From IMG/VR virus record IMGVR_UViG_3300031830_000001: DNA of 20,640 nt. One strand, 5' to 3'. The notes beneath the pieces were generated by a model. It saw only the letters and a list, made by a program, of their open reading frames with translations. It was not told the origin of the DNA and made no database searches. How positions within the stretch are numbered: position 1 is the stretch's first letter; each line of letters begins with the position of its first letter. Both the position numbers and the translations under genes were made by a program. This DNA is from an uncultured virus (IMG/VR IMGVR_UViG_3300031830_000001) (lineage: Duplodnaviria > Heunggongvirae > Uroviricota > Caudoviricetes). Below are positions 1 to 6,279 of this stretch, piece after piece.

Positions 1-1635
1 GCCTTTTCTCAGGTATTCTACAATAGGCGCGCCGATATTTGGAGCTTTCCTAATTCGCAAGTTGTCAACTAGAACAGTTCCTCTATATTTATATTCAGGC
101 TCTGGAGGCGGGGGTGAGGGAGTTCCAGAAAGATACTTTTGTTTAAATTCGGCAGTAGTAATATTTTTATCTACATGATTGCTCTCTAAGCCGTATAGTT
201 TACCTTCAAAGTTACCATCGGCGGAAAATTGCCACAACTCCCACTTTGTCCAATCTAAAGGTCGATAAGAATCTTTCTCACCGAACCAGGGCAAATCAGT
301 TCCGTATCTAGCTACCCATAACCCGTATCTAGACCAACCAGACCATCTACTAACATAGACATTCCACCATGAGCCTCTTGTATAAATCAAAGGCGGGTGT
401 AAATTATATTGCTTCAGCCACTCTTCTAGCAATTGAGCTAGTTTCTGAATTACGGAGGTAATTTTCTCTTTAGATTGCCCGTTATCAAATTCACAATCTA
501 AAGCAACTGGAAAATCTGGAATTTTATCGCCAAATGATTTCTTAAAAAACTCAAAATGAGCCTCAGCACTTACTTTAGGGTCAACAAAGATATAGCAACT
601 AACGGGTATCTTAGCATCTTTTAGAATTTGCCAAAACTCCTCAAATTTAGAGTCCTTAGTATAATCTCCTTGAGTACATTTGATAATGACCCCAATGACA
701 TTATTTTCTCTCATTTTATTTACATCTAAAATCCGACCATTCCACTTAGAAATATCTAGAATAACCTCCCGCCTATCAAATGGAATATCTATATTAAGAA
801 GGTTCATTATATTACTAATTTTACATCCTACGATGTACCCCCCTCCACCTGCGAAAAGAATACCAACTACTTTATTACTTCCCTGTTCTAAAATAGGGGA
901 GCCACTATCTCCAGGGGCGCCTCCCATTTTACAAATAAAGCAATCCTTTAATGTATAAGTTGTCCCATCATAATCAACATTAACTGTAACTCCGATAGCA
1001 GTAACAGAACCAAATGTAGCATCTGTAGAACGCCCATATTTCTTTACAGACATCCCAACTGAGGGGTCTTTCCACCCATTTACTGTAGGAAGTAAATTCC
1101 AGATTCCTGTCAAATATTTAGCGGTTGGTTTAGCCAGGGCTGCATCAACTGTTGTACCATTTTCCAATTTGATAAATTTATATAAAGTCCCCACAACCTC
1201 AGTACCCCCATCATATTTACCAGGTTGGTAAATGCTATCTCCAATTTGAGCTTTATTTGTATTAGCAAATACGTGATTATTTGACAAAAGTAAAAATTCA
1301 CCACTAGTTTTTTCCTGTACAACTAGAGAAAGAGTTCCCGCCGTAACTTTTTCATGCCCGATAGAAATACTCCCCTGTAAAGGTCGAATCTTAGCCGTCC
1401 TATTATAGGCTTTAAATGAATCTACTTTAATAACTTTAACTTTGCTTAGGCTATAACTATTTAGATAGGGAATGTCTTTATCTGTAAAGATAACTAATCC
1501 CTCATCATCATAACCCACTGCTAAAGCTCCACTCCTAATAAAAGAGTCCTCATGTTCTTCTTTAAGAGCTTTAATTTCCTCCTTAGATAAGCTCTTAAAG
1601 GCTCGTTTAAATTGATTAATATACTTTCTAACCAT
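1..1635 (-). CDS. Endolysin, partial (3' end outside window): S1/chymotrypsin-like serine protease + GH25 muramidase + Pro linker + start of SH3b-like domain
   Basis: Manual translation from ATG 1635 is open to position 1 (545 codons, MVRKYINQF...). Protease motifs: TAGTLS, LLSNNHV (His 1273-1275), YQPGKYDGG, VDAALA (Asp 1144-1146), KKYGRST, PGDSGSP (Ser 904-906), VVGILFAG. GH25 motifs: ILDISKWNG, IIKCTQG, VALDCE (DxE), PLIYT, LWVARY, WELWQFS, VDKN. These are followed by PSPPPPEPE and VLVDNLRIRKAPN...VEYLRKG. The start overlaps the holin end by 8 bp. Confidence 0.9.
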   Translation of the reverse strand, partial: MVRKYINQFKRAFKSLSKEEIKALKEEHEDSFIRSGALAVGYDDEGLVIFTDKDIPYLNSYSLSKVKVIKVDSFKAYNRTAKIRPLQGSISIGHEKVTAGTLSLVVQEKTSGEFLLLSNNHVFANTNKAQIGDSIYQPGKYDGGTEVVGTLYKFIKLENGTTVDAALAKPTAKYLTGIWNLLPTVNGWKDPSVGMSVKKYGRSTDATFGSVTAIGVTVNVDYDGTTYTLKDCFICKMGGAPGDSGSPILEQGSNKVVGILFAGGGGYIVGCKISNIMNLLNIDIPFDRREVILDISKWNGRILDVNKMRENNVIGVIIKCTQGDYTKDSKFEEFWQILKDAKIPVSCYIFVDPKVSAEAHFEFFKKSFGDKIPDFPVALDCEFDNGQSKEKITSVIQKLAQLLEEWLKQYNLHPPLIYTRGSWWNVYVSRWSGWSRYGLWVARYGTDLPWFGEKDSYRPLDWTKWELWQFSADGNFEGKLYGLESNHVDKNITTAEFKQKYLSGTPSPPPPEPEYKYRGTVLVDNLRIRKAPNIGAPIVEYLRKG

Positions 1636-1921
1636 AAGTCTTTTTCCTATTAGGGTCTAAACTATGCGCAGCTTGATTTAAGAAAATCATCCCAAACACA
1701 GAAGCTAAAACTTGAAAGTATGGCTCTAAAGTCCTTAAAATTTCCTGAGGGACAAAATTTGAAACCAATAAAGCTCCCAAACCTAGAAAAGCACTTAAAC
1801 CAAACTGCAAATATCTCTTTTGTTGGGGAGTTAAATTTTGAAACCAATCTACCTGCTCTAAAGCCCATGAGGCTGCAATAACACAACCACCACTGACGAG
1901 CCAAAGTAAAAATTCAGACAT
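1628..1921 (-). CDS. Putative holin
   Basis: 97 aa with three hydrophobic segments and a basic C-terminus (NRKKTYG). Strong AGGAGGT Shine-Dalgarno upstream. Lies directly before, and overlaps, the endolysin. Confidence 0.75.
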   Translation of the reverse strand: MSEFLLWLVSGGCVIAASWALEQVDWFQNLTPQQKRYLQFGLSAFLGLGALLVSNFVPQEILRTLEPYFQVLASVFGMIFLNQAAHSLDPNRKKTYG

Positions 1922-1958
1922 TTTATACCTCCTCTACTCAAAAATTATCTATAATTTA

Positions 1959-1978
1959 ATTTTACCACAGTAATTATA
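1959..1978 (-). promoter_or_regulatory. Possible sigma70-type promoter elements upstream of the lysis cassette
   Basis: The minus strand has TATAAT (1978-1973) and an extended -10 match TGTG-G-TAAAAT (1969-1959) in the 94-bp AT-rich gap. There is no good -35 at 17-bp spacing, so chance matches are possible. Confidence 0.3.
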
Positions 1979-2015
1979 ACCTAACATCTCTGTCGATTTT
2001 TTTTTTCATTTTCCC

Positions 2016-2474
2016 CTATTTAGGGGGATTAGGAAACGGTAATGTTACCACATCGTTATAAGTATAAATTTGCGATAAATCCACTTCTGGGTTGTCGGTA
2101 TCTAGCTTCCAGGTCGCTGGTAAATCCCGTAATCGTTGCCGATACGCTTGCCATGCAGGTTTGTTAGTTTGTACATCAGGTAAAACAGCAAAATCACTTT
2201 CGGTAAGTAGTTGATTGCGATACTCCCGAATCCAGCGTTTGATAGTTGATAATGTTGGTTTATCTTTTGGAATTTCGACTAAATTACCTTCTTCGTCTGG
2301 CATAAAGTTCATAGTTTGTTCGTATTCTACTTCTGCTTTTTGTAATTGTTCTAATAATTTTTTCTCTGCGGCTTCTTCTGTGTCCTTATCAGATAGTATT
2401 AATTCCACTCGCAAAGCGGGGTATTTTTTAGATTGTATATAAATTGAATTATGTCCTGTGCGATAAATGTCCAT
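2016..2474 (-). CDS. Tail fibre assembly chaperone
   Basis: Motif WIREYRNQLLTESDFAVLPD...WQAYRQRLRDLP...FPNPPK is typical of phage tail assembly chaperones. Immediately downstream of the fibre gene, with a GAGG RBS. Confidence 0.85.
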   Translation of the reverse strand: MDIYRTGHNSIYIQSKKYPALRVELILSDKDTEEAAEKKLLEQLQKAEVEYEQTMNFMPDEEGNLVEIPKDKPTLSTIKRWIREYRNQLLTESDFAVLPDVQTNKPAWQAYRQRLRDLPATWKLDTDNPEVDLSQIYTYNDVVTLPFPNPPK

Positions 2475-2482
2475 AAGACCTC

Positions 2483-4009
2483 TTAAAAATTTGTGTAATA
2501 GAAATGAAAATAACCTGCCCTGGGACCCGTGCTGGTTCGATTACGAACAAATATACCATGTCGGGTGGGAGTAAAACTATAAGATGCAGACGCAGTAAAA
2601 CTGCTATGTACATCATCATTTGCATAAAGCCAAATTATTGATGATGTTCCAATAGTCATTCTCAAATAAAGGGCTTTTCCCCCAGGAAACGTACTAGATA
2701 GTTGTATTTCTGTTATTGTTGTTCCAGAACGTTCGCGTTTGAACAAAGCAGCATCATAAGAGCTGTAAGTTCCAACACCACCTCTGATGAAAAATTCGAC
2801 GGAGTATTCATTATTATTGTCTACATATCCATTATCAATTCTTATACCCACATCTACATTATTTGAGTCGGCAGCACACCACGCATTAATGTTACCATCG
2901 ATAGGTACGTTTTGACTTTTATACAAGAAACAAGTTATATTTACTTGAGAACTGCTTGGGGTAGCTTGTAATAAATGATTGATAACATTATAGACAGTCC
3001 AAGATGGCGTTGTTGTCCATCCAGTCCAATAAGACGACAAGTTACTAGTTGTGAAATGGTCTCTCATAGTGTGAGATGGAAACTTTGCAAAATACCCATT
3101 TGTATCCAACCCATACCCATTTAGTACCAAAGTCTTTCCAGTTTGAATCTGCACTCCATCCGAAATCTCACTCATTACACTATCCCCAATCGCATTCGTC
3201 CCCGTGAATTTGGGAATAGTATTAGTTGTCCCTGAACCCAACACTGCCGTTCCAGTTCCTGGCACGGTCATTGTATAATCCTTTGTGCGCACCGTGTTAG
3301 TGCGTTCATTTTTGAGCCCGTTTTCGTCAATCGTGACAGCAGTGACGGGAGTAGTACTTCCTGTTGGAGTGACTTCTACGTCCAGCTTTGTACCGTGTGC
3401 CGTGCTCGACCAGTTTTGTGCCGCTCGCAAATTTATTCTTACACGACTTCCACTAGCCCAATTAGTGCCGTCATGACCGAGAGCGGAAATCCGACCGAGC
3501 AGGTCGTTGTTCTGAACTGCTCCACTTCCGCTTTGGCGAGAGCGCCAAAAAGCCAAGAACGGATTATAACTATCGGTTATGCGTCGCACATCCACATAGC
3601 CGCGAGACCAGAAGGTCTCACCATAATCTCCGTAGATAGTGTCACCGATAAGTGCCAGAGCGTCCAAATCAGACTCATATTCGATACCCGTTATGGCTTT
3701 GAGCATGTTATTAACATCCCAGAAGACGACATGGTTTTGCGACCCTGTGCCTTGCGGGATGACTTTGAACTCCAAACCGTCTTCGGCAGAATTAACGGAG
3801 ACAACCTTGTTAGCGTGACCTGAGTAACTGTTCGGCGTATCCGTAAGACCGATAAACGTAGACGTCCCACCACTCAGGTCACCGTTTAGCTTTGTCAACG
3901 TGCCGTTGACGGTAATCGTATCATATTGCATCGCGTAAACTTGCAGCTCCTCTCCTGCCGCGACGAAAACCTTGTTAGCATAACTTCCGATTACCTTGAC
4001 CACAGCCAT
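2483..4009 (-). CDS. Tail fibre / receptor-binding protein
   Basis: 508 aa, Gly/Ser/Thr-rich. Fibre-type modules FIGLTDTPNSYSGHANKVVSVNSAEDGLEF, AVQNNDLLGRISALGHDG...QNWSSTAHGTKL and GSGTTNTIPKFTGTNAIGDS, then a beta-rich C-terminal domain. Followed by a chaperone. GGAGGT RBS 6 nt before the ATG. Confidence 0.8.
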   Translation of the reverse strand: MAVVKVIGSYANKVFVAAGEELQVYAMQYDTITVNGTLTKLNGDLSGGTSTFIGLTDTPNSYSGHANKVVSVNSAEDGLEFKVIPQGTGSQNHVVFWDVNNMLKAITGIEYESDLDALALIGDTIYGDYGETFWSRGYVDVRRITDSYNPFLAFWRSRQSGSGAVQNNDLLGRISALGHDGTNWASGSRVRINLRAAQNWSSTAHGTKLDVEVTPTGSTTPVTAVTIDENGLKNERTNTVRTKDYTMTVPGTGTAVLGSGTTNTIPKFTGTNAIGDSVMSEISDGVQIQTGKTLVLNGYGLDTNGYFAKFPSHTMRDHFTTSNLSSYWTGWTTTPSWTVYNVINHLLQATPSSSQVNITCFLYKSQNVPIDGNINAWCAADSNNVDVGIRIDNGYVDNNNEYSVEFFIRGGVGTYSSYDAALFKRERSGTTITEIQLSSTFPGGKALYLRMTIGTSSIIWLYANDDVHSSFTASASYSFTPTRHGIFVRNRTSTGPRAGYFHFYYTNF

Positions 4010-4789
4010 CTATCCACCTCCAAAACTTGCTATTTGCAATCCATAAGTCGTACCGTTGAAACCACAATGTGCGATTTGACCTGTACAAGAATAAGTAATG
4101 CATCCATACCCTTGTCCAGAAGTAGAAATCCCTTCGAAGTAACACAAATCCGCGTAAAGCGTTGTTGCATGGGGTCCCATAACTAAACCAGCAGCCGTTC
4201 CAGAAGAAGCTGAAGCAAATGCGTAAACTCGACTAAAGGCAGCCGAGTAAGCAACCTGGATTGCATAAGTCGTCCCTGAACTGCTGTTGTTGACATAAAC
4301 CAGCAAATCCCGAAAGGAGTAACCCGACAATGAACAAGAAATTCCACGTACAGGATTCGTGGAGTTCGCATTGAACAAAAACGCAAGGTTATCCAGCGCA
4401 ACCTGTCCAGTAGTGATAGAGACTAAGTTTCCACTCACAAACCCAGGAGCATTACTGATTACGGCTCCTTTGTGATAAGTGTCCAAAGAAACGTTCCGCA
4501 CAGGGTCTCGAACTCCGATAAGTTTTATCTTCTTGTGGATACTTAGCGTACTGTTGAGTTGGATATGTACAGCAGGGATGGTAATCGTATCGTAGTCGGC
4601 AGCGGCACCAATCGCCGCACGCAATCCGTCCTCATCTGCCGTGTACCTGCGAACCTTCGAACCATAAAGCACGATTTCCGCCCCTCCCTCGCTGCTAGAA
4701 GTGCGCTTGGCAAGGTTGGCAAGCTGCTCGATGTCCCGCATGGCGAAGGGACGTAAGCGCTCCCAGAGTTCATGCGCCGTTTCCGTCAT
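4010..4789 (-). CDS. Tail-tip protein with probable right-handed beta-helix (tailspike-like)
   Basis: 259 aa. DGLRAAIGAAADYDTITIPAVHIQLNSTLSIHKKIKLIG resembles a beta-helix cap plus first rungs, followed by periodic beta-strands. TGATG overlap with the upstream gene. Confidence 0.65.
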   Translation of the reverse strand: MTETAHELWERLRPFAMRDIEQLANLAKRTSSSEGGAEIVLYGSKVRRYTADEDGLRAAIGAAADYDTITIPAVHIQLNSTLSIHKKIKLIGVRDPVRNVSLDTYHKGAVISNAPGFVSGNLVSITTGQVALDNLAFLFNANSTNPVRGISCSLSGYSFRDLLVYVNNSSSGTTYAIQVAYSAAFSRVYAFASASSGTAAGLVMGPHATTLYADLCYFEGISTSGQGYGCITYSCTGQIAHCGFNGTTYGLQIASFGGG

Positions 4790-6279
4790 CAGTACACCTC
4801 CCCCAGCAGGTAAGGACTGCTGCGTCCGGCAATCCGACTAATGCGCCATCTTCCACCCTGATACTCGACTTCTTCCGGCAAGAAGCCGACCTTCAACCTG
4901 GCATCTTCGAGCAAGTAGTACTCGCCGAGTTTGACGCCGGCGAAAACGTCTGCTCGATAGCGCGTCTTTCCATCCCTGCGCAGATAATAGTAATCGCTTT
5001 CCGTAGATGGTTCGGAGGGGAGAAGTTTACAAACCAGCTTGCGATTAGAATCTACGTAAGCAATTGCCCGATTGCTCTCCAGCTTGAGCAGTTCTTTCAA
5101 CTCGTAAAGAGCCGTGTTATATCCCTCGCGGAATACCCTGGTCTCTGTGCCGAAACTGCTCTGGAATTCTACACCATTCAAAAATTGTCCGCAGGTCGTG
5201 ACGATGTTCTCGATTTGCTCCTTCACGCTCCCCATGCCGATAAGCTCGAAGTTCAGGTCTCCCTTCTGCGGCGCGTGCTTCCAAGCCGATAAGTTGGTGT
5301 ACCAAAGGTACAGGTCGCCCCGCGGATAGCCTAAATCCAGATTGGTGTCGACCATGAAATATTTGCTTGCATCTACCGACCCGGAGCGCTCAACCGTTAT
5401 CCAGTATATCGTGCCCGGCGACAGGTTGACCGCGCTTGCAAACTCCTTCTCCGTCCAATCGGAAGATGTCCCGATTTCACCCGCCGGGATGGTTACGGTT
5501 GCCAGAGCCGTGCCGGGGACACCACCGGCATCCTGACATAGCTTGACAACCAGGTTATCGGTCGGGGGATTGGCTTCCGGGTACTTCCACGGTCGGATGC
5601 GGATTTTCTTTGCCGACCAGCCGGAAGTCGACGATAGTTGTATCTGCTGCGCGAGCTTCGGTCGGTCATCTTCCCCGATTTCCCGTCCGCCCGAACCGGT
5701 CTCGGAATAACCCTCATAACCTTTGTCGTTAGCATAGTACATCCAATCCAGGGTCTGCATCAGTCCGATAACGCCGATGACGACCTCATCCCCGCCCATA
5801 CCGGCAACGTCCAATCCGATATTCGGCTCTTTGTGCAGTTCAAGGTATTTGCCTGCCAGCGTATTTGTCTCGCCTTCGGTCTTTTCCGAGACGGTCAGGA
5901 GCTTTTGCTTGCGCCCGTATGTGGCAATGCTCACGACATCTTCTACCCAGTCCGTTTGGACGTTCTTCATGCCGAGGGCAGAAATCACCTTGACGCTGTT
6001 AGCCATATCATCCAGGCTCGCCTGCAGGGTCATCTGACCATGCGGAACGCGCACGTTGGTAATCAGACCGACCCAGCGTCCCAGCTCTTCCTCGTCCCAT
6101 AGCTCTACGTAGTTGCCGACAAGCGCTAAGTATTCCTCCTCTACTCCGGCAAACGGCAGGATAACCTCTGCGCTTACCAATCCGCCGAACGCGGCCAGGG
6201 TCATGCGCTCAACCCGCAGGTCGTCCTCCGTGAACAGCACGTAAAGCGATTGACGGCTGAGTATCTTTGCCCGTATCAT
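4789..6279 (-). CDS. Baseplate hub / Tal-like tail-tip protein with an inserted beta-sandwich domain
   Basis: 496 aa, second gene after the tape measure. Hub-type motifs WVGLITNV, LDDMANSVKV and DVVSIATYGRKQ. ATGA overlap with the upstream gene. Confidence 0.65.
   Translation of the reverse strand: MIRAKILSRQSLYVLFTEDDLRVERMTLAAFGGLVSAEVILPFAGVEEEYLALVGNYVELWDEEELGRWVGLITNVRVPHGQMTLQASLDDMANSVKVISALGMKNVQTDWVEDVVSIATYGRKQKLLTVSEKTEGETNTLAGKYLELHKEPNIGLDVAGMGGDEVVIGVIGLMQTLDWMYYANDKGYEGYSETGSGGREIGEDDRPKLAQQIQLSSTSGWSAKKIRIRPWKYPEANPPTDNLVVKLCQDAGGVPGTALATVTIPAGEIGTSSDWTEKEFASAVNLSPGTIYWITVERSGSVDASKYFMVDTNLDLGYPRGDLYLWYTNLSAWKHAPQKGDLNFELIGMGSVKEQIENIVTTCGQFLNGVEFQSSFGTETRVFREGYNTALYELKELLKLESNRAIAYVDSNRKLVCKLLPSEPSTESDYYYLRRDGKTRYRADVFAGVKLGEYYLLEDARLKVGFLPEEVEYQGGRWRISRIAGRSSPYLLGEVY

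What the first reader, a model, noticed from the sequence alone, without database searches (positions are those of the whole stretch)
1..1635. Endolysin is a serine protease-GH25 muramidase-SH3b fusion: candidate dual protein-layer/peptidoglycan lysis enzyme
Seen: one open frame of at least 545 codons right after the holin, absent from the ORF track. It has about 80 N-terminal residues, a chymotrypsin-fold domain with a complete triad (H121 in SNNHV, D164 in VDAALA, S244 in GDSGSP), a GH25 domain with its acidic residues (D294 in DISKW, D380-x-E382), a PSPPPPEPE linker and an SH3b-like start. Established: peptidase domains in endolysins are usually CHAP/NlpC, M15 or M23 enzymes that cut peptidoglycan stems, whereas S1 proteases cut ordinary proteins. 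I do not recall this pairing as a standard endolysin architecture. Inference: the protease may breach a proteinaceous envelope layer (S-layer or filament sheath) in a role analogous to spanins or LysB, or it may autoprocess to activate the muramidase. The N-terminal segment could be an inhibitory pro-region.
Basis: partly seen in the sequence, partly recalled or inferred. Interest (0 to 1): 0.82.

Follow-up and report, generated by a model that had tools for sequence, protein, structure and literature searches.

The report
Serine protease–lysozyme fusion phage endolysin
A hot-spring phage's cell-bursting enzyme has an intact serine protease of the plant NAL1 type fused in front of its ordinary wall-cutting lysozyme, a pairing that recurs in a small family of uncultured phages and that I could not find described.

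Summary
On the minus strand (1635..1) lies a 545-codon frame cut off by the window edge. Near-identical contigs give the full 657-aa protein. It has four parts: an N-terminal NAL1_N-like subdomain, an S1 serine protease (H121/D164/S244), a GH25 muramidase (D294, D380-x-E382), and a Pro-rich linker followed by two SH3b domains. Its ATG overlaps the end of a small holin-like membrane-protein gene.

The fusion is not an assembly artefact. Contigs from four sequencing runs and three IMG/VR contigs bridge the domain junction. 25 of 25 aligned fusion proteins (32-66% identical to the window's) keep all six catalytic residues. Their protease domains form one clade, and dN/dS is 0.06-0.14.

The protease is closest to rice NAL1 and its prokaryotic relatives, then to streptogrisin and alpha-lytic proteases. 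The first 80 residues are a family subdomain, not a pro-region.

What the protease cuts is unresolved: peptidoglycan peptides (about 0.4), an envelope protein layer or tether (about 0.3), or itself (about 0.1). The host is unknown. No such architecture turned up in the GenBank phages, in the BFVD rows shown, in the species-genome hits kept, or in four literature searches.

Verdict: a new variant of the modular endolysin.

The window is also a GC mosaic joined inside the tail-fibre gene.

The parts
1..1635 (-). Endolysin gene, residues 1-545 of a 657-aa protein, cut by the window edge
   Evidence: Open frame. The full length is taken from L002 and L003 at 96% and 95% identity. X1 record 1 runs 5683 nt beyond the window's left end.
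1384..1635 (-). N-terminal NAL1_N-like subdomain (residues 1-84)
   Evidence: hhalign against free-standing relatives includes this segment. The A2 profile aligns it with the N-terminal part of NAL1 chains. AF2 predicts helix 18-34 and strands 37-43, 46-51 and 65-70. This protein itself does not reach Pfam NAL1_N at E 0.01.
781..1383 (-). S1 (chymotrypsin-fold) serine protease domain, residues 85-285. Triad codons: H121 = 1273-1275, D164 = 1144-1146, S244 = 904-906.
   Evidence: Pfam Trypsin and PHROG 20754. Foldseek: NAL1 at E 3.6e-14; streptogrisins, alpha-lytic protease and Lysobacter L1/L5 at TMt 0.76-0.85. The triad is invariant in 25 of 25 fusions.
202..756 (-). GH25 muramidase domain, residues 294-478. 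D294 = 754-756, D380 = 496-498, E382 = 490-492.
   Evidence: Pfam PF01183, 99.3 bits. D294, D380 and E382 are invariant in 25 of 25.
94..120 (-). Pro-rich linker PSPPPPEPE (residues 506-514)
   Evidence: Pro-rich in the 10 fusions of A1.
1..81 (-). Start of the first SH3b (SH3_3) wall-binding domain, from residue 519. The rest lies outside the window.
   Evidence: SH3_3 at 524-576, with a second stretch further on, in P0002.
1628..1921 (-). Holin-like 97-aa membrane protein. Its stop overlaps the lysin's ATG.
   Evidence: Hydropathy, sequence, ribosome site and overlap. No family match.
2016..2474 (-). Tail-fibre assembly chaperone
   Evidence: Pfam PF16778, E 3.4e-9; PHROG 4912.
2483..4009 (-). 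Tail-fibre gene (508 aa) containing the GC and mosaic junction at nt 3238
   Evidence: GC is about 0.36 to the left and 0.49 or more to the right. The L002 match ends at 3238, G001 starts at 3085, and L004 spans the junction. The fork is seen in all four runs laid.

Best explanation
This is the phage's holin-dependent endolysin, built as a two-headed enzyme.

Shown:
- A NAL1-like S1 serine endopeptidase, with its family-typical N-terminal subdomain, is fused through a short linker to a GH25 muramidase.
- A Pro-rich linker and two SH3b wall-binding domains follow.
- There is no signal peptide or membrane segment.
- The gene is translationally coupled to a small holin-like membrane protein.
- Both catalytic centres are conserved under purifying selection in a monophyletic family.

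Inferred:
- After the holin opens the membrane, the SH3b domains hold the enzyme on the sacculus.
- GH25 cuts the glycan strands.
- The serine protease acts as a second lytic head that cuts peptide bonds of the wall. Most likely these are L-amino-acid or glycine cross-bridges or stems of the peptidoglycan. That is the job done by the CHAP domain in the B30/PlyGBS lysins (CHAP-lysozyme-SH3b) and by the S1-fold Lysobacter L1/L5 and alpha-lytic proteases.

My odds: real, active, two-headed endolysin about 0.85. Peptidoglycan peptides as the protease's substrate about 0.4.
For: - Position and coupling to a holin-like gene. No hydrophobic 19-mer above threshold in the lysin.
- Domain calls.
- H121, D164, S244, D294, D380 and E382 are invariant in 25 of 25 fusions that are 32-66% identical to the window's protein.
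- dN/dS among the window, L002 and L003: N-terminus plus protease 0.06-0.14, GH25 0.03-0.08.
- The 25 fusion protease domains form one side of a branch (SH-aLRT 99) against 92 other rows.
- Fold: after NAL1, the best PDB matches are streptogrisins, alpha-lytic protease and Lysobacter L1/L5 (TMt 0.76-0.85, rmsd 2.5-3.5 A; profile E 8e-9 to 2e-4). [quoted passage not shown]
- The same order of parts as the B30 lysin: N-terminal endopeptidase, middle lysozyme, C-terminal SH3b (PMC9378833, Table 1 and passages).
- A second, independent fusion of this protease family to a wall hydrolase. The 883-aa protein of L108 has a NAL1-like protease plus SpoIID (Pfam E 6e-20) and sits among free-standing proteases in the tree.
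- Residues 1-505 are modelled as one body (pTM 0.80, mean pLDDT 88).
Against: - No activity was measured and the host and its peptidoglycan type are unknown.
- S1 proteases cut after L-residues, so most peptidoglycan bonds (D-residues, iso-peptide links) are out of reach unless the host has L-amino-acid or glycine bridges (established knowledge).
- The closest family, NAL1, degrades proteins (PMC12012508, passages).
- Free-standing relatives occur in archaeal MAGs and in an archaeal virus, so the ancestral substrate is unlikely to be peptidoglycan.
- The low-GC relatives encode a separate M23-SH3b endopeptidase three genes downstream. It could already do the cross-link cutting.
- Only 1 of 42 free-standing viral homologues examined sits beside an endolysin-type gene.
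Confidence: 0.4

Rival explanations
1. The protease head cuts proteins of the envelope rather than peptidoglycan. Candidates are an S-layer, a sheath, or proteins that tether an outer layer to the wall. On this reading the lysin itself carries out the last step of lysis that spanins or LysB perform in other phages.
For: - NAL1, the closest solved relative, is a protein-degrading protease.
- Free-standing relatives occur in archaeal MAGs (Thermoplasmata, Archaeoglobaceae, 'Methanobacteriota') and in the Aeropyrum coil-shaped virus.
- The same lysis cluster already has an M23-SH3b endopeptidase.
- A 48%-identical M23-SH3b protein is recorded with the same longest-contig length (11,525 nt) as fusion P0006. 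This is suggestive only.
- No spanin-like pair lies downstream in L002. There is one 115-aa protein with a single hydrophobic segment and one 86-aa soluble protein without a lipobox-like start.
- The fusions lack the 38-40-residue insert between His and Asp that most free-standing relatives carry.
Against: - The host is unknown, so no protein layer is known to exist.
- No substrate evidence.
- The architecture mirrors peptidoglycan-only lysins such as B30.
- The SH3b domains aim the enzyme at peptidoglycan.
- Absence of recognisable spanins is weak evidence, because they are hard to recognise.
Confidence: 0.3
2. The protease works on the lysin itself or on a phage partner. It could release or activate the GH25-SH3b part, or time lysis. 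It would not act on the host envelope.
For: - Some chymotrypsin-fold viral proteases cut in cis (recalled).
- Weak phmmer rows to alphavirus capsid proteases (E 0.16-0.19) carry no weight.
- The protein has two linkers that could be cut.
Against: - The protease-GH25 linker is about 10 residues and not conserved among the 10 fusions of A1.
- Residues 1-505 are predicted as one body (pTM 0.80).
- The second linker is Pro-rich, a poor S1 substrate (established knowledge).
- Nothing in the sequence marks a conserved cleavage site.
Confidence: 0.1
3. It is a virion-associated wall hydrolase used at entry, not the endolysin. The gene lies right after the tail-fibre and chaperone genes.
For: Gene order is TMP, distal tail genes, fibre, chaperone, small membrane protein, this gene.
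Against: - A holin-like gene with an overlapping stop/start lies directly upstream.
- C-terminal SH3b domains and the lack of any tail-protein domain are typical of endolysins.
- Tail-then-lysis order is common in siphoviruses (established knowledge).
Confidence: 0.07
4. The fusion is an assembly or gene-calling artefact, or the protease head is a dead relic.
For: - The Pfam Trypsin score is only just above its cut-off (24.6 against 20.6).
- The window itself changes GC sharply at about 3100-3300.
Against: - The domain junction is bridged in four runs of four studies and in three IMG/VR contigs.
- 25 of 25 diverse fusions keep the triad.
- dN/dS is 0.06-0.14.
- The fusions form a single deep clade.
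Confidence: 0.03

Closest known systems
Streptococcus agalactiae phage B30 and PlyGBS lysins (CHAP endopeptidase, lysozyme, SH3b)
   Same: The same order of parts: N-terminal peptide-cutting head, central lysozyme-type glycosidase, C-terminal SH3b wall-binding module (PMC9378833, Table 1).
   Different: The N-terminal head here is a clan-PA S1 serine protease with a NAL1_N-like subdomain, not a cysteine CHAP domain. There are two SH3b copies. No sequence relation was found in the GenBank phage search.
Rice NARROW LEAF 1 (NAL1) and the prokaryotic NAL1-like S1 peptidases (Pfam NAL1_N plus Nal1_C, about 330 aa)
   Same: Best sequence-profile and fold matches (E 9e-12; Foldseek E 3.6e-14 over 340 columns; hhalign E 2.4e-72 to free-standing relatives). 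Same H-D-S triad and the same N-terminal subdomain.
   Different: Here it is fused to GH25 and SH3b. The His-Asp spacing is 43-48 residues, against a median of 87 in 54 free-standing relatives. This protein does not itself reach the Pfam NAL1_N or Nal1_C thresholds. NAL1's hexameric cage and ATP binding were not testable.
Alpha-lytic protease and Lysobacter L1/L5 bacteriolytic proteases; streptogrisins (S1E)
   Same: Compact bacterial chymotrypsin fold (TMt 0.76-0.85). The C-terminal barrel aligns over 77 residues around GDSG with streptogrisin B. L1 and L5 cut peptidoglycan peptide bridges (PMC12250508, abstract).
   Different: Those enzymes are secreted with a signal peptide and a large folding pro-region (recalled). 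This one has neither and sits inside a phage lysin.
GH25 (Cpl-1-type) endolysins of Clostridium, Geobacillus and Faecalibacterium phages
   Same: GH25 domain with the acidic residues. tblastn gives 25-29% identity over residues 288-504.
   Different: None of the 17 matching GenBank phage records covers more than 42% of the query. The GH25-SH3b half has only one non-fusion relative at E 1e-10 or better that exceeds 30% identity (P0278, 37%).
Spanins and mycobacteriophage LysB (functional analogues only, relevant to the protein-layer rival)
   Same: They would serve the same step: removing what is left of the envelope after peptidoglycan is cut.
   Different: No sequence or fold relation. Here the activity would be a protease built into the lysin. 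This comparison rests on recalled knowledge.

Membership tests
Peptidase family S1 (clan PA, chymotrypsin fold) | Double beta-barrel fold | tested here: met
   AF2 model of residues 1-290 has pLDDT 90. Foldseek hits to streptogrisins and alpha-lytic protease have TMt 0.76-0.85 and rmsd 2.5-3.5 A.
Peptidase family S1 (clan PA, chymotrypsin fold) | Catalytic triad in the order His, Asp, Ser, with a GDSG motif | tested here: met
   H121, D164 and S244 in GDSGS. Invariant in 25 of 25 fusions and in 54 of 54 free-standing relatives aligned. The 10-residue pLDDT blocks holding them score 97-98. Distances between the residues were not measured.
NAL1-like peptidases (Pfam NAL1_N plus Nal1_C) | Homology across the protease domain and the N-terminal subdomain | tested here: met
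   hhalign prob 100, E 2.4e-72, fusion columns 22-292 against standalone 8-335. PDB profile hits to NAL1 come in two stretches, one of them N-terminal. PHROG 20754 E 6.6e-40.
NAL1-like peptidases (Pfam NAL1_N plus Nal1_C) | Reaches Pfam's own thresholds for NAL1_N or Nal1_C | tested here: not met
   No hit at E 0.01 or better for the window's protein. Related fusions P0009 and P0010 have Nal1_C at 23-24 bits, below the 26.1 cut-off. P0126 and P0127 pass at 27.5 and 27.8 bits.
NAL1-like peptidases (Pfam NAL1_N plus Nal1_C) | Trimer or hexamer cage with active sites facing inward, and ATP binding (PMC12012508) | not testable with these tools
Glycoside hydrolase family 25 muramidase | Pfam PF01183 above threshold, with conserved acidic residues | tested here: met
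   99.3 bits against a cut-off of 27. D294, D380 and E382 are invariant in 25 of 25. Their assignment as the catalytic residues is recalled from Cpl-1, not tested.
SH3b (SH3_3) wall-binding module | Pfam PF08239 above threshold | tested here: met
   Two stretches, 48.6 bits, in the 96%-identical full-length P0002. Only the first 27 or so residues lie inside the window.
Canonical holin-dependent endolysin | Peptidoglycan hydrolase without an export signal, encoded next to a holin | tested here: inconclusive
   No hydrophobic segment in the lysin. The upstream 97-aa ORF has membrane segments and an overlapping stop/start but belongs to no holin family in Pfam or PHROGs. Lysis itself was not testable.
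B30/PlyGBS-type lysin | N-terminal CHAP cysteine peptidase | tested here: not met
   No CHAP hit. The head is an S1 protease.
S1E secreted bacteriolytic proteases (alpha-lytic protease, L1/L5) | Signal peptide and long folding pro-region | tested here: not met
   The N-terminus is hydrophilic. It is homologous to the NAL1_N-type subdomain of intracellular-type relatives.

The most novel reading that the evidence does not exclude
The serine protease head is a built-in breaker of a proteinaceous envelope layer. The target could be an S-layer, a sheath, or proteins that tether an outer layer to the wall. That would make this a third solution, beside spanins and LysB, to the last step of phage lysis, recruited from a protein-degrading protease family shared with plants, archaea and archaeal viruses.
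Probability: 0.3. Interest if true: 0.8.

Novelty: new variant of a known kind. Interest (0 to 1): 0.6.

Why it matters
Endolysin catalytic heads are usually drawn from a short list: glycosidases, amidases, and CHAP/NlpC, M15 or M23 peptidases. A conserved family with a clan-PA serine protease head would add a new class.

It gives a concrete protein for two tests. One is whether an S1 protease can serve as a peptidoglycan endopeptidase inside a lysin. The other is whether phages use proteases to clear protein layers at lysis.

It also links the little-understood prokaryotic NAL1-like proteases to a cell-envelope task. The source is hot-spring mats, so the enzyme may be heat-stable. That is an inference; nothing was measured.

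Tried and rejected
**Host identification failed.**
- DNA searches of 301, 401, 401, 401 and 401 sampled genomes were run, in the phyla of the genomes that hold L059 (Meiothermus MAG), L051 (Nostoc), L036 (Chloroflexia MAG), L047 (Thermanaeromonas MAG) and L010 (Chitinophagales MAG).
- They gave only short or distant hits. The best were 70% identity over 225 nt in the head-protease gene, and 74-76% over 158 nt in the terminase gene. A 26-nt exact match is not in a repeat array.
- Searches listed the same genome handles, so I cannot say that two different phyla were searched.
- The low-GC phage's DNA polymerase has no close cultured relative (32% or less).
- The nearest named relatives of the M23 core are Bacteroidota MAGs, at about 50% identity over half the protein. 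That is too weak to name a host.

**Other dead ends.**
- ESM Atlas: scores 0.75-0.77, uninformative.
- Earlier findings of this scan: none.
- S1-pocket specificity could not be read from the sequence alignments.

**Literature.**
- No paper held endolysin together with trypsin-like and 'serine protease domain', or with Glyco_hydro_25 and trypsin.
- Seven papers held endolysin, chymotrypsin-like and peptidoglycan. Judged by title and abstract, none is on such a lysin.
- Only one of the 12 papers listed of 19 holds 'endolysin', and by title and abstract start it is a review of lactic-acid-bacteria cell walls, not of such a lysin.
- The endolysin survey PMC5968864 has no 'trypsin' or 'serine protease' in its main text, nor in the two small supplement texts held. 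Its full tables were not visible to me.
- PMC9371310 has neither term.
Full report
**1. What is there**

The finding's frame lies on the minus strand, 1635..1. It is 545 codons long and is cut by the window edge, not by a stop.

Family matches for this protein:
- Pfam Glyco_hydro_25 at residues 294-478 (99.3 bits, cut-off 27).
- Pfam Trypsin at 114-265, just above its cut-off (24.6 against 20.6).
- PHROG 20754 'protease' at 78-284, E 6.6e-40.

A 96%-identical protein, P0002, gives the full length of 657 aa, with two SH3_3 stretches after the Pro-rich linker. The same gene appears in IMG/VR contigs L002 and L003.

Directly upstream lies a 97-aa ORF (1921..1628).
- It has a GAGGAGG ribosome site.
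- It has two clear hydrophobic segments plus a weaker third, and a basic tail.
- Its stop codon overlaps the lysin's ATG.
- It matches no Pfam or PHROG family, so 'holin' rests on shape and position.

The lysin has no hydrophobic segment.

Upstream of these come a tail-fibre chaperone, a 508-aa fibre, distal tail genes and a tape measure. Further up are the head-tail, capsid, portal and terminase genes. This is an ordinary siphovirus late region that ends in a lysis cassette.

**2. Is the fusion real?**

Yes. The protease/GH25 junction is bridged in two independent ways:
- By contigs of four sequencing runs from four studies: X1 record 1 (1-2393, no difference, on an 8,076-nt contig), X2 record 10, X5 record 17 and X9 record 25.
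- By three IMG/VR contigs.

The architecture also recurs in distant relatives.
- A word-indexed search listed 10 full-length fusions and one fragment among its best 120 hits.
- A profile search of 1.84 billion cluster representatives put 16 full-length fusions (564-718 aa) at the top of its 150 listed rows.
- All 15 of those that I scanned have GH25 above threshold. Most also carry SH3_3, a Flg_new_2 repeat, or both. Six of the 15 also reach a trypsin-type or Nal1_C family at E 0.001 or better.
- In an alignment of the window's protein with 24 of these (32-66% identity), H121, D164, S244, D294, D380 and E382 are invariant.

Selection and phylogeny point the same way.
- Among the window, L002 and L003, dN/dS is 0.06-0.14 for the N-terminus and protease, and 0.03-0.08 for GH25.
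- In a maximum-likelihood tree of 117 protease domains, the 25 fusions form one side of a branch with SH-aLRT 99. The other rows were P0275, P0222 and 90 free-standing proteins drawn at random from the roughly 225 other session proteins that span the domain. P0002 and P0142 were left out.
- The fusion is therefore old, has a single origin as far as this tree shows, and has been kept active.

**3. What kind of protease?**

A profile of the N-terminal 290 residues with 54 free-standing relatives hits rice NARROW LEAF 1 first (E about 9e-12, two stretches). Streptogrisins, alpha-lytic protease and the Lysobacter lytic endopeptidases follow.

The AF2 model of residues 1-290 has pLDDT 90 and pTM 0.77. 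The blocks holding the triad score 97-98. Foldseek gives the same order of matches:
- NAL1 at E 3.6e-14 over about 340 columns, which includes the N-terminal part.
- S1E proteases at TMt 0.76-0.85 and rmsd 2.5-3.5 A.

Free-standing relatives of about 330 aa carry Pfam NAL1_N and Nal1_C. They align with the fusion family from residue 22 to 292 (hhalign E 2.4e-72). The first 80 residues are therefore a family subdomain, not a pro-region. In NAL1 the corresponding region helps build the trimer, according to passages of PMC12012508.

One difference stands out. The fusions have the canonical His-Asp spacing of 43-48 residues. Most free-standing relatives carry an extra 38-40 residues there, with a median spacing of 87 in 54 proteins.

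The free-standing proteases are widespread in Bacillota, Chloroflexota, cyanobacteria and archaeal MAGs. They also occur in about 70 IMG/VR contigs.
- I examined 45 of the 71 non-fusion viral loci. I left out 26 with short or duplicated matches.
- 42 of the 45 gave an ORF.
- Only one (L110) has an endolysin-type neighbour. The other contexts are mixed.

One further viral protein, 883 aa on L108, joins a NAL1-like protease to a SpoIID wall-hydrolase domain. It sits among the free-standing proteases in the tree. It is a second, independent link between this protease family and cell-wall degradation.

**4. How rare, and is it known?**

I found no fusion in any of these:
- The 17 matching records among 50,697 GenBank phage records.
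- The 80 best of 596 confirmed matches in 185,579 species genomes.
- The 50 BFVD rows shown, where the best TMq is 0.44 and each hit covers one domain only.

IMG/VR holds three contigs with the fusion, all close relatives of the window.

Four literature searches and two endolysin papers gave no description of a trypsin-fold head in an endolysin. The full supplementary tables of the survey PMC5968864 were not visible to me.

The closest known architecture is the B30/PlyGBS lysin: CHAP endopeptidase, lysozyme, SH3b (PMC9378833).

**5. Mechanism**

Shown: a leaderless two-headed enzyme with wall-binding domains, coupled to a holin-like gene. Both catalytic centres are conserved. The two heads are modelled as one body (residues 1-505, pTM 0.80).

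Inferred: after holin action, GH25 cuts the glycan and the protease cuts peptide bonds in the envelope. Which bonds it cuts remains open.

For peptidoglycan peptides:
- The B30-like order of parts.
- S1-fold relatives (Lysobacter L1/L5) that cut peptidoglycan bridges (PMC12250508, abstract).
- The independent SpoIID fusion.
- The rigid coupling to GH25.

For envelope proteins:
- NAL1 degrades proteins.
- Relatives occur in archaea and in an archaeal virus.
- A separate M23-SH3b endopeptidase lies three genes downstream in L002 and L003.
- No recognisable spanins.
- S1 enzymes need L-residues at the cut site (established knowledge).

Self-processing has no positive support.

I put these at about 0.4, 0.3 and 0.1. 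The host, which would help decide, could not be identified.

**6. Context: a GC mosaic**

GC is about 0.36 from nt 1 to about 3100 and 0.49-0.61 beyond.

How the related contigs line up with the window:
- L002, a contig of 33-35% GC, matches the window from 2 to 3238 at 98.5% identity and then diverges completely. Its phage is estimated at about 85-90 kb and encodes its own polymerase, helicase, primase, UvsX and RNR.
- G001 is identical to the window from nt 3085 onward.
- L004, from another sample, spans nt 770-5048. It is 97.5% identical left of 3238 and 97.6% identical right of it.

The fork at 3238 appears in all four runs laid, and X2 record 13 and X5 record 22 bridge it.

This favours a real mosaic. 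On that reading, a high-GC siphovirus carries a fibre-tip, chaperone, holin and lysin module that it shares almost unchanged with an unrelated low-GC phage.

A repeated chimera is not fully excluded. In X1 the module's depth (39-40) equals that of a contig running on into the low-GC phage, while the high-GC part is at about 17.

Either way the lysin itself stands. It is intact in the low-GC phages, and in X9 it occurs without the high-GC backbone.

The four runs laid are labelled hot-spring or microbial-mat metagenomes.

**7. Verdict**

This is a new variant of the modular endolysin, with a catalytic head of a class I could not find reported. Its substrate is still to be determined. Interest 0.6.

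Noticed in passing
window 2483-4009, junction at about 3085-3238: There is a sharp GC step (0.36 to 0.5-0.6) inside the tail-fibre gene. Left of 3238 the window is 98.5% identical to a 33-35% GC phage contig (L002). Right of it the two show no similarity. A second strain (L004) has the same junction, with equal divergence on both sides (97.5% and 97.6%). This is probably a recent swap of a fibre-tip, chaperone, holin and lysin module between unrelated phages. A repeated assembly chimera is not fully excluded, because of the X1 depths.
   Followed up: partly
window 1-2750 against L002: Divergence from L002 is uneven inside the shared module. There are 3 differences in nt 1000-2750 but 39 in nt 1-1000 (the GH25 and SH3b part and the end of the protease). 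This suggests a further recombination break inside the lysin gene near residue 212.
   Followed up: no
L002 10380-11590 (downstream of the lysin; outside the window): The low-GC phage continues with three ORFs: a 115-aa ORF with one strong hydrophobic segment, an 86-aa soluble ORF, and a 192-aa M23 peptidase with its own SH3_3 domain, which is a second leaderless lysin. A 48%-identical M23-SH3b protein is recorded with the same longest-contig length (11,525 nt) as the distant fusion P0006.
   Followed up: partly
L108 5881-8532: An 883-aa viral protein joins, in order, a NAL1-like protease, a PPPP linker, an unassigned stretch of about 300 residues, a SpoIID domain, a second Pro-rich linker and a C-terminal tail. 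It looks like another multi-head lysin built on the same protease family.
   Followed up: partly
L094, L105, L106, L147 (viral contigs with a free-standing NAL1-like protease): In 4 of the 42 loci examined, the gene just downstream of the protease belongs to PHROG 5889 (unknown function). It may be a conserved partner.
   Followed up: no
P0142 (1643 aa) and P0222 (1992 aa), from the representatives search: These are giant proteins that begin with NAL1-like protease domains. P0142 has two to three protease copies plus CARDB repeats. Their function is unknown.
   Followed up: no
(tool behaviour): The phylum-wide searches centred on the Thermanaeromonas MAG and on the Chitinophagales MAG listed the same genome handles. 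The phylum actually sampled in those two calls is therefore uncertain.
   Followed up: no
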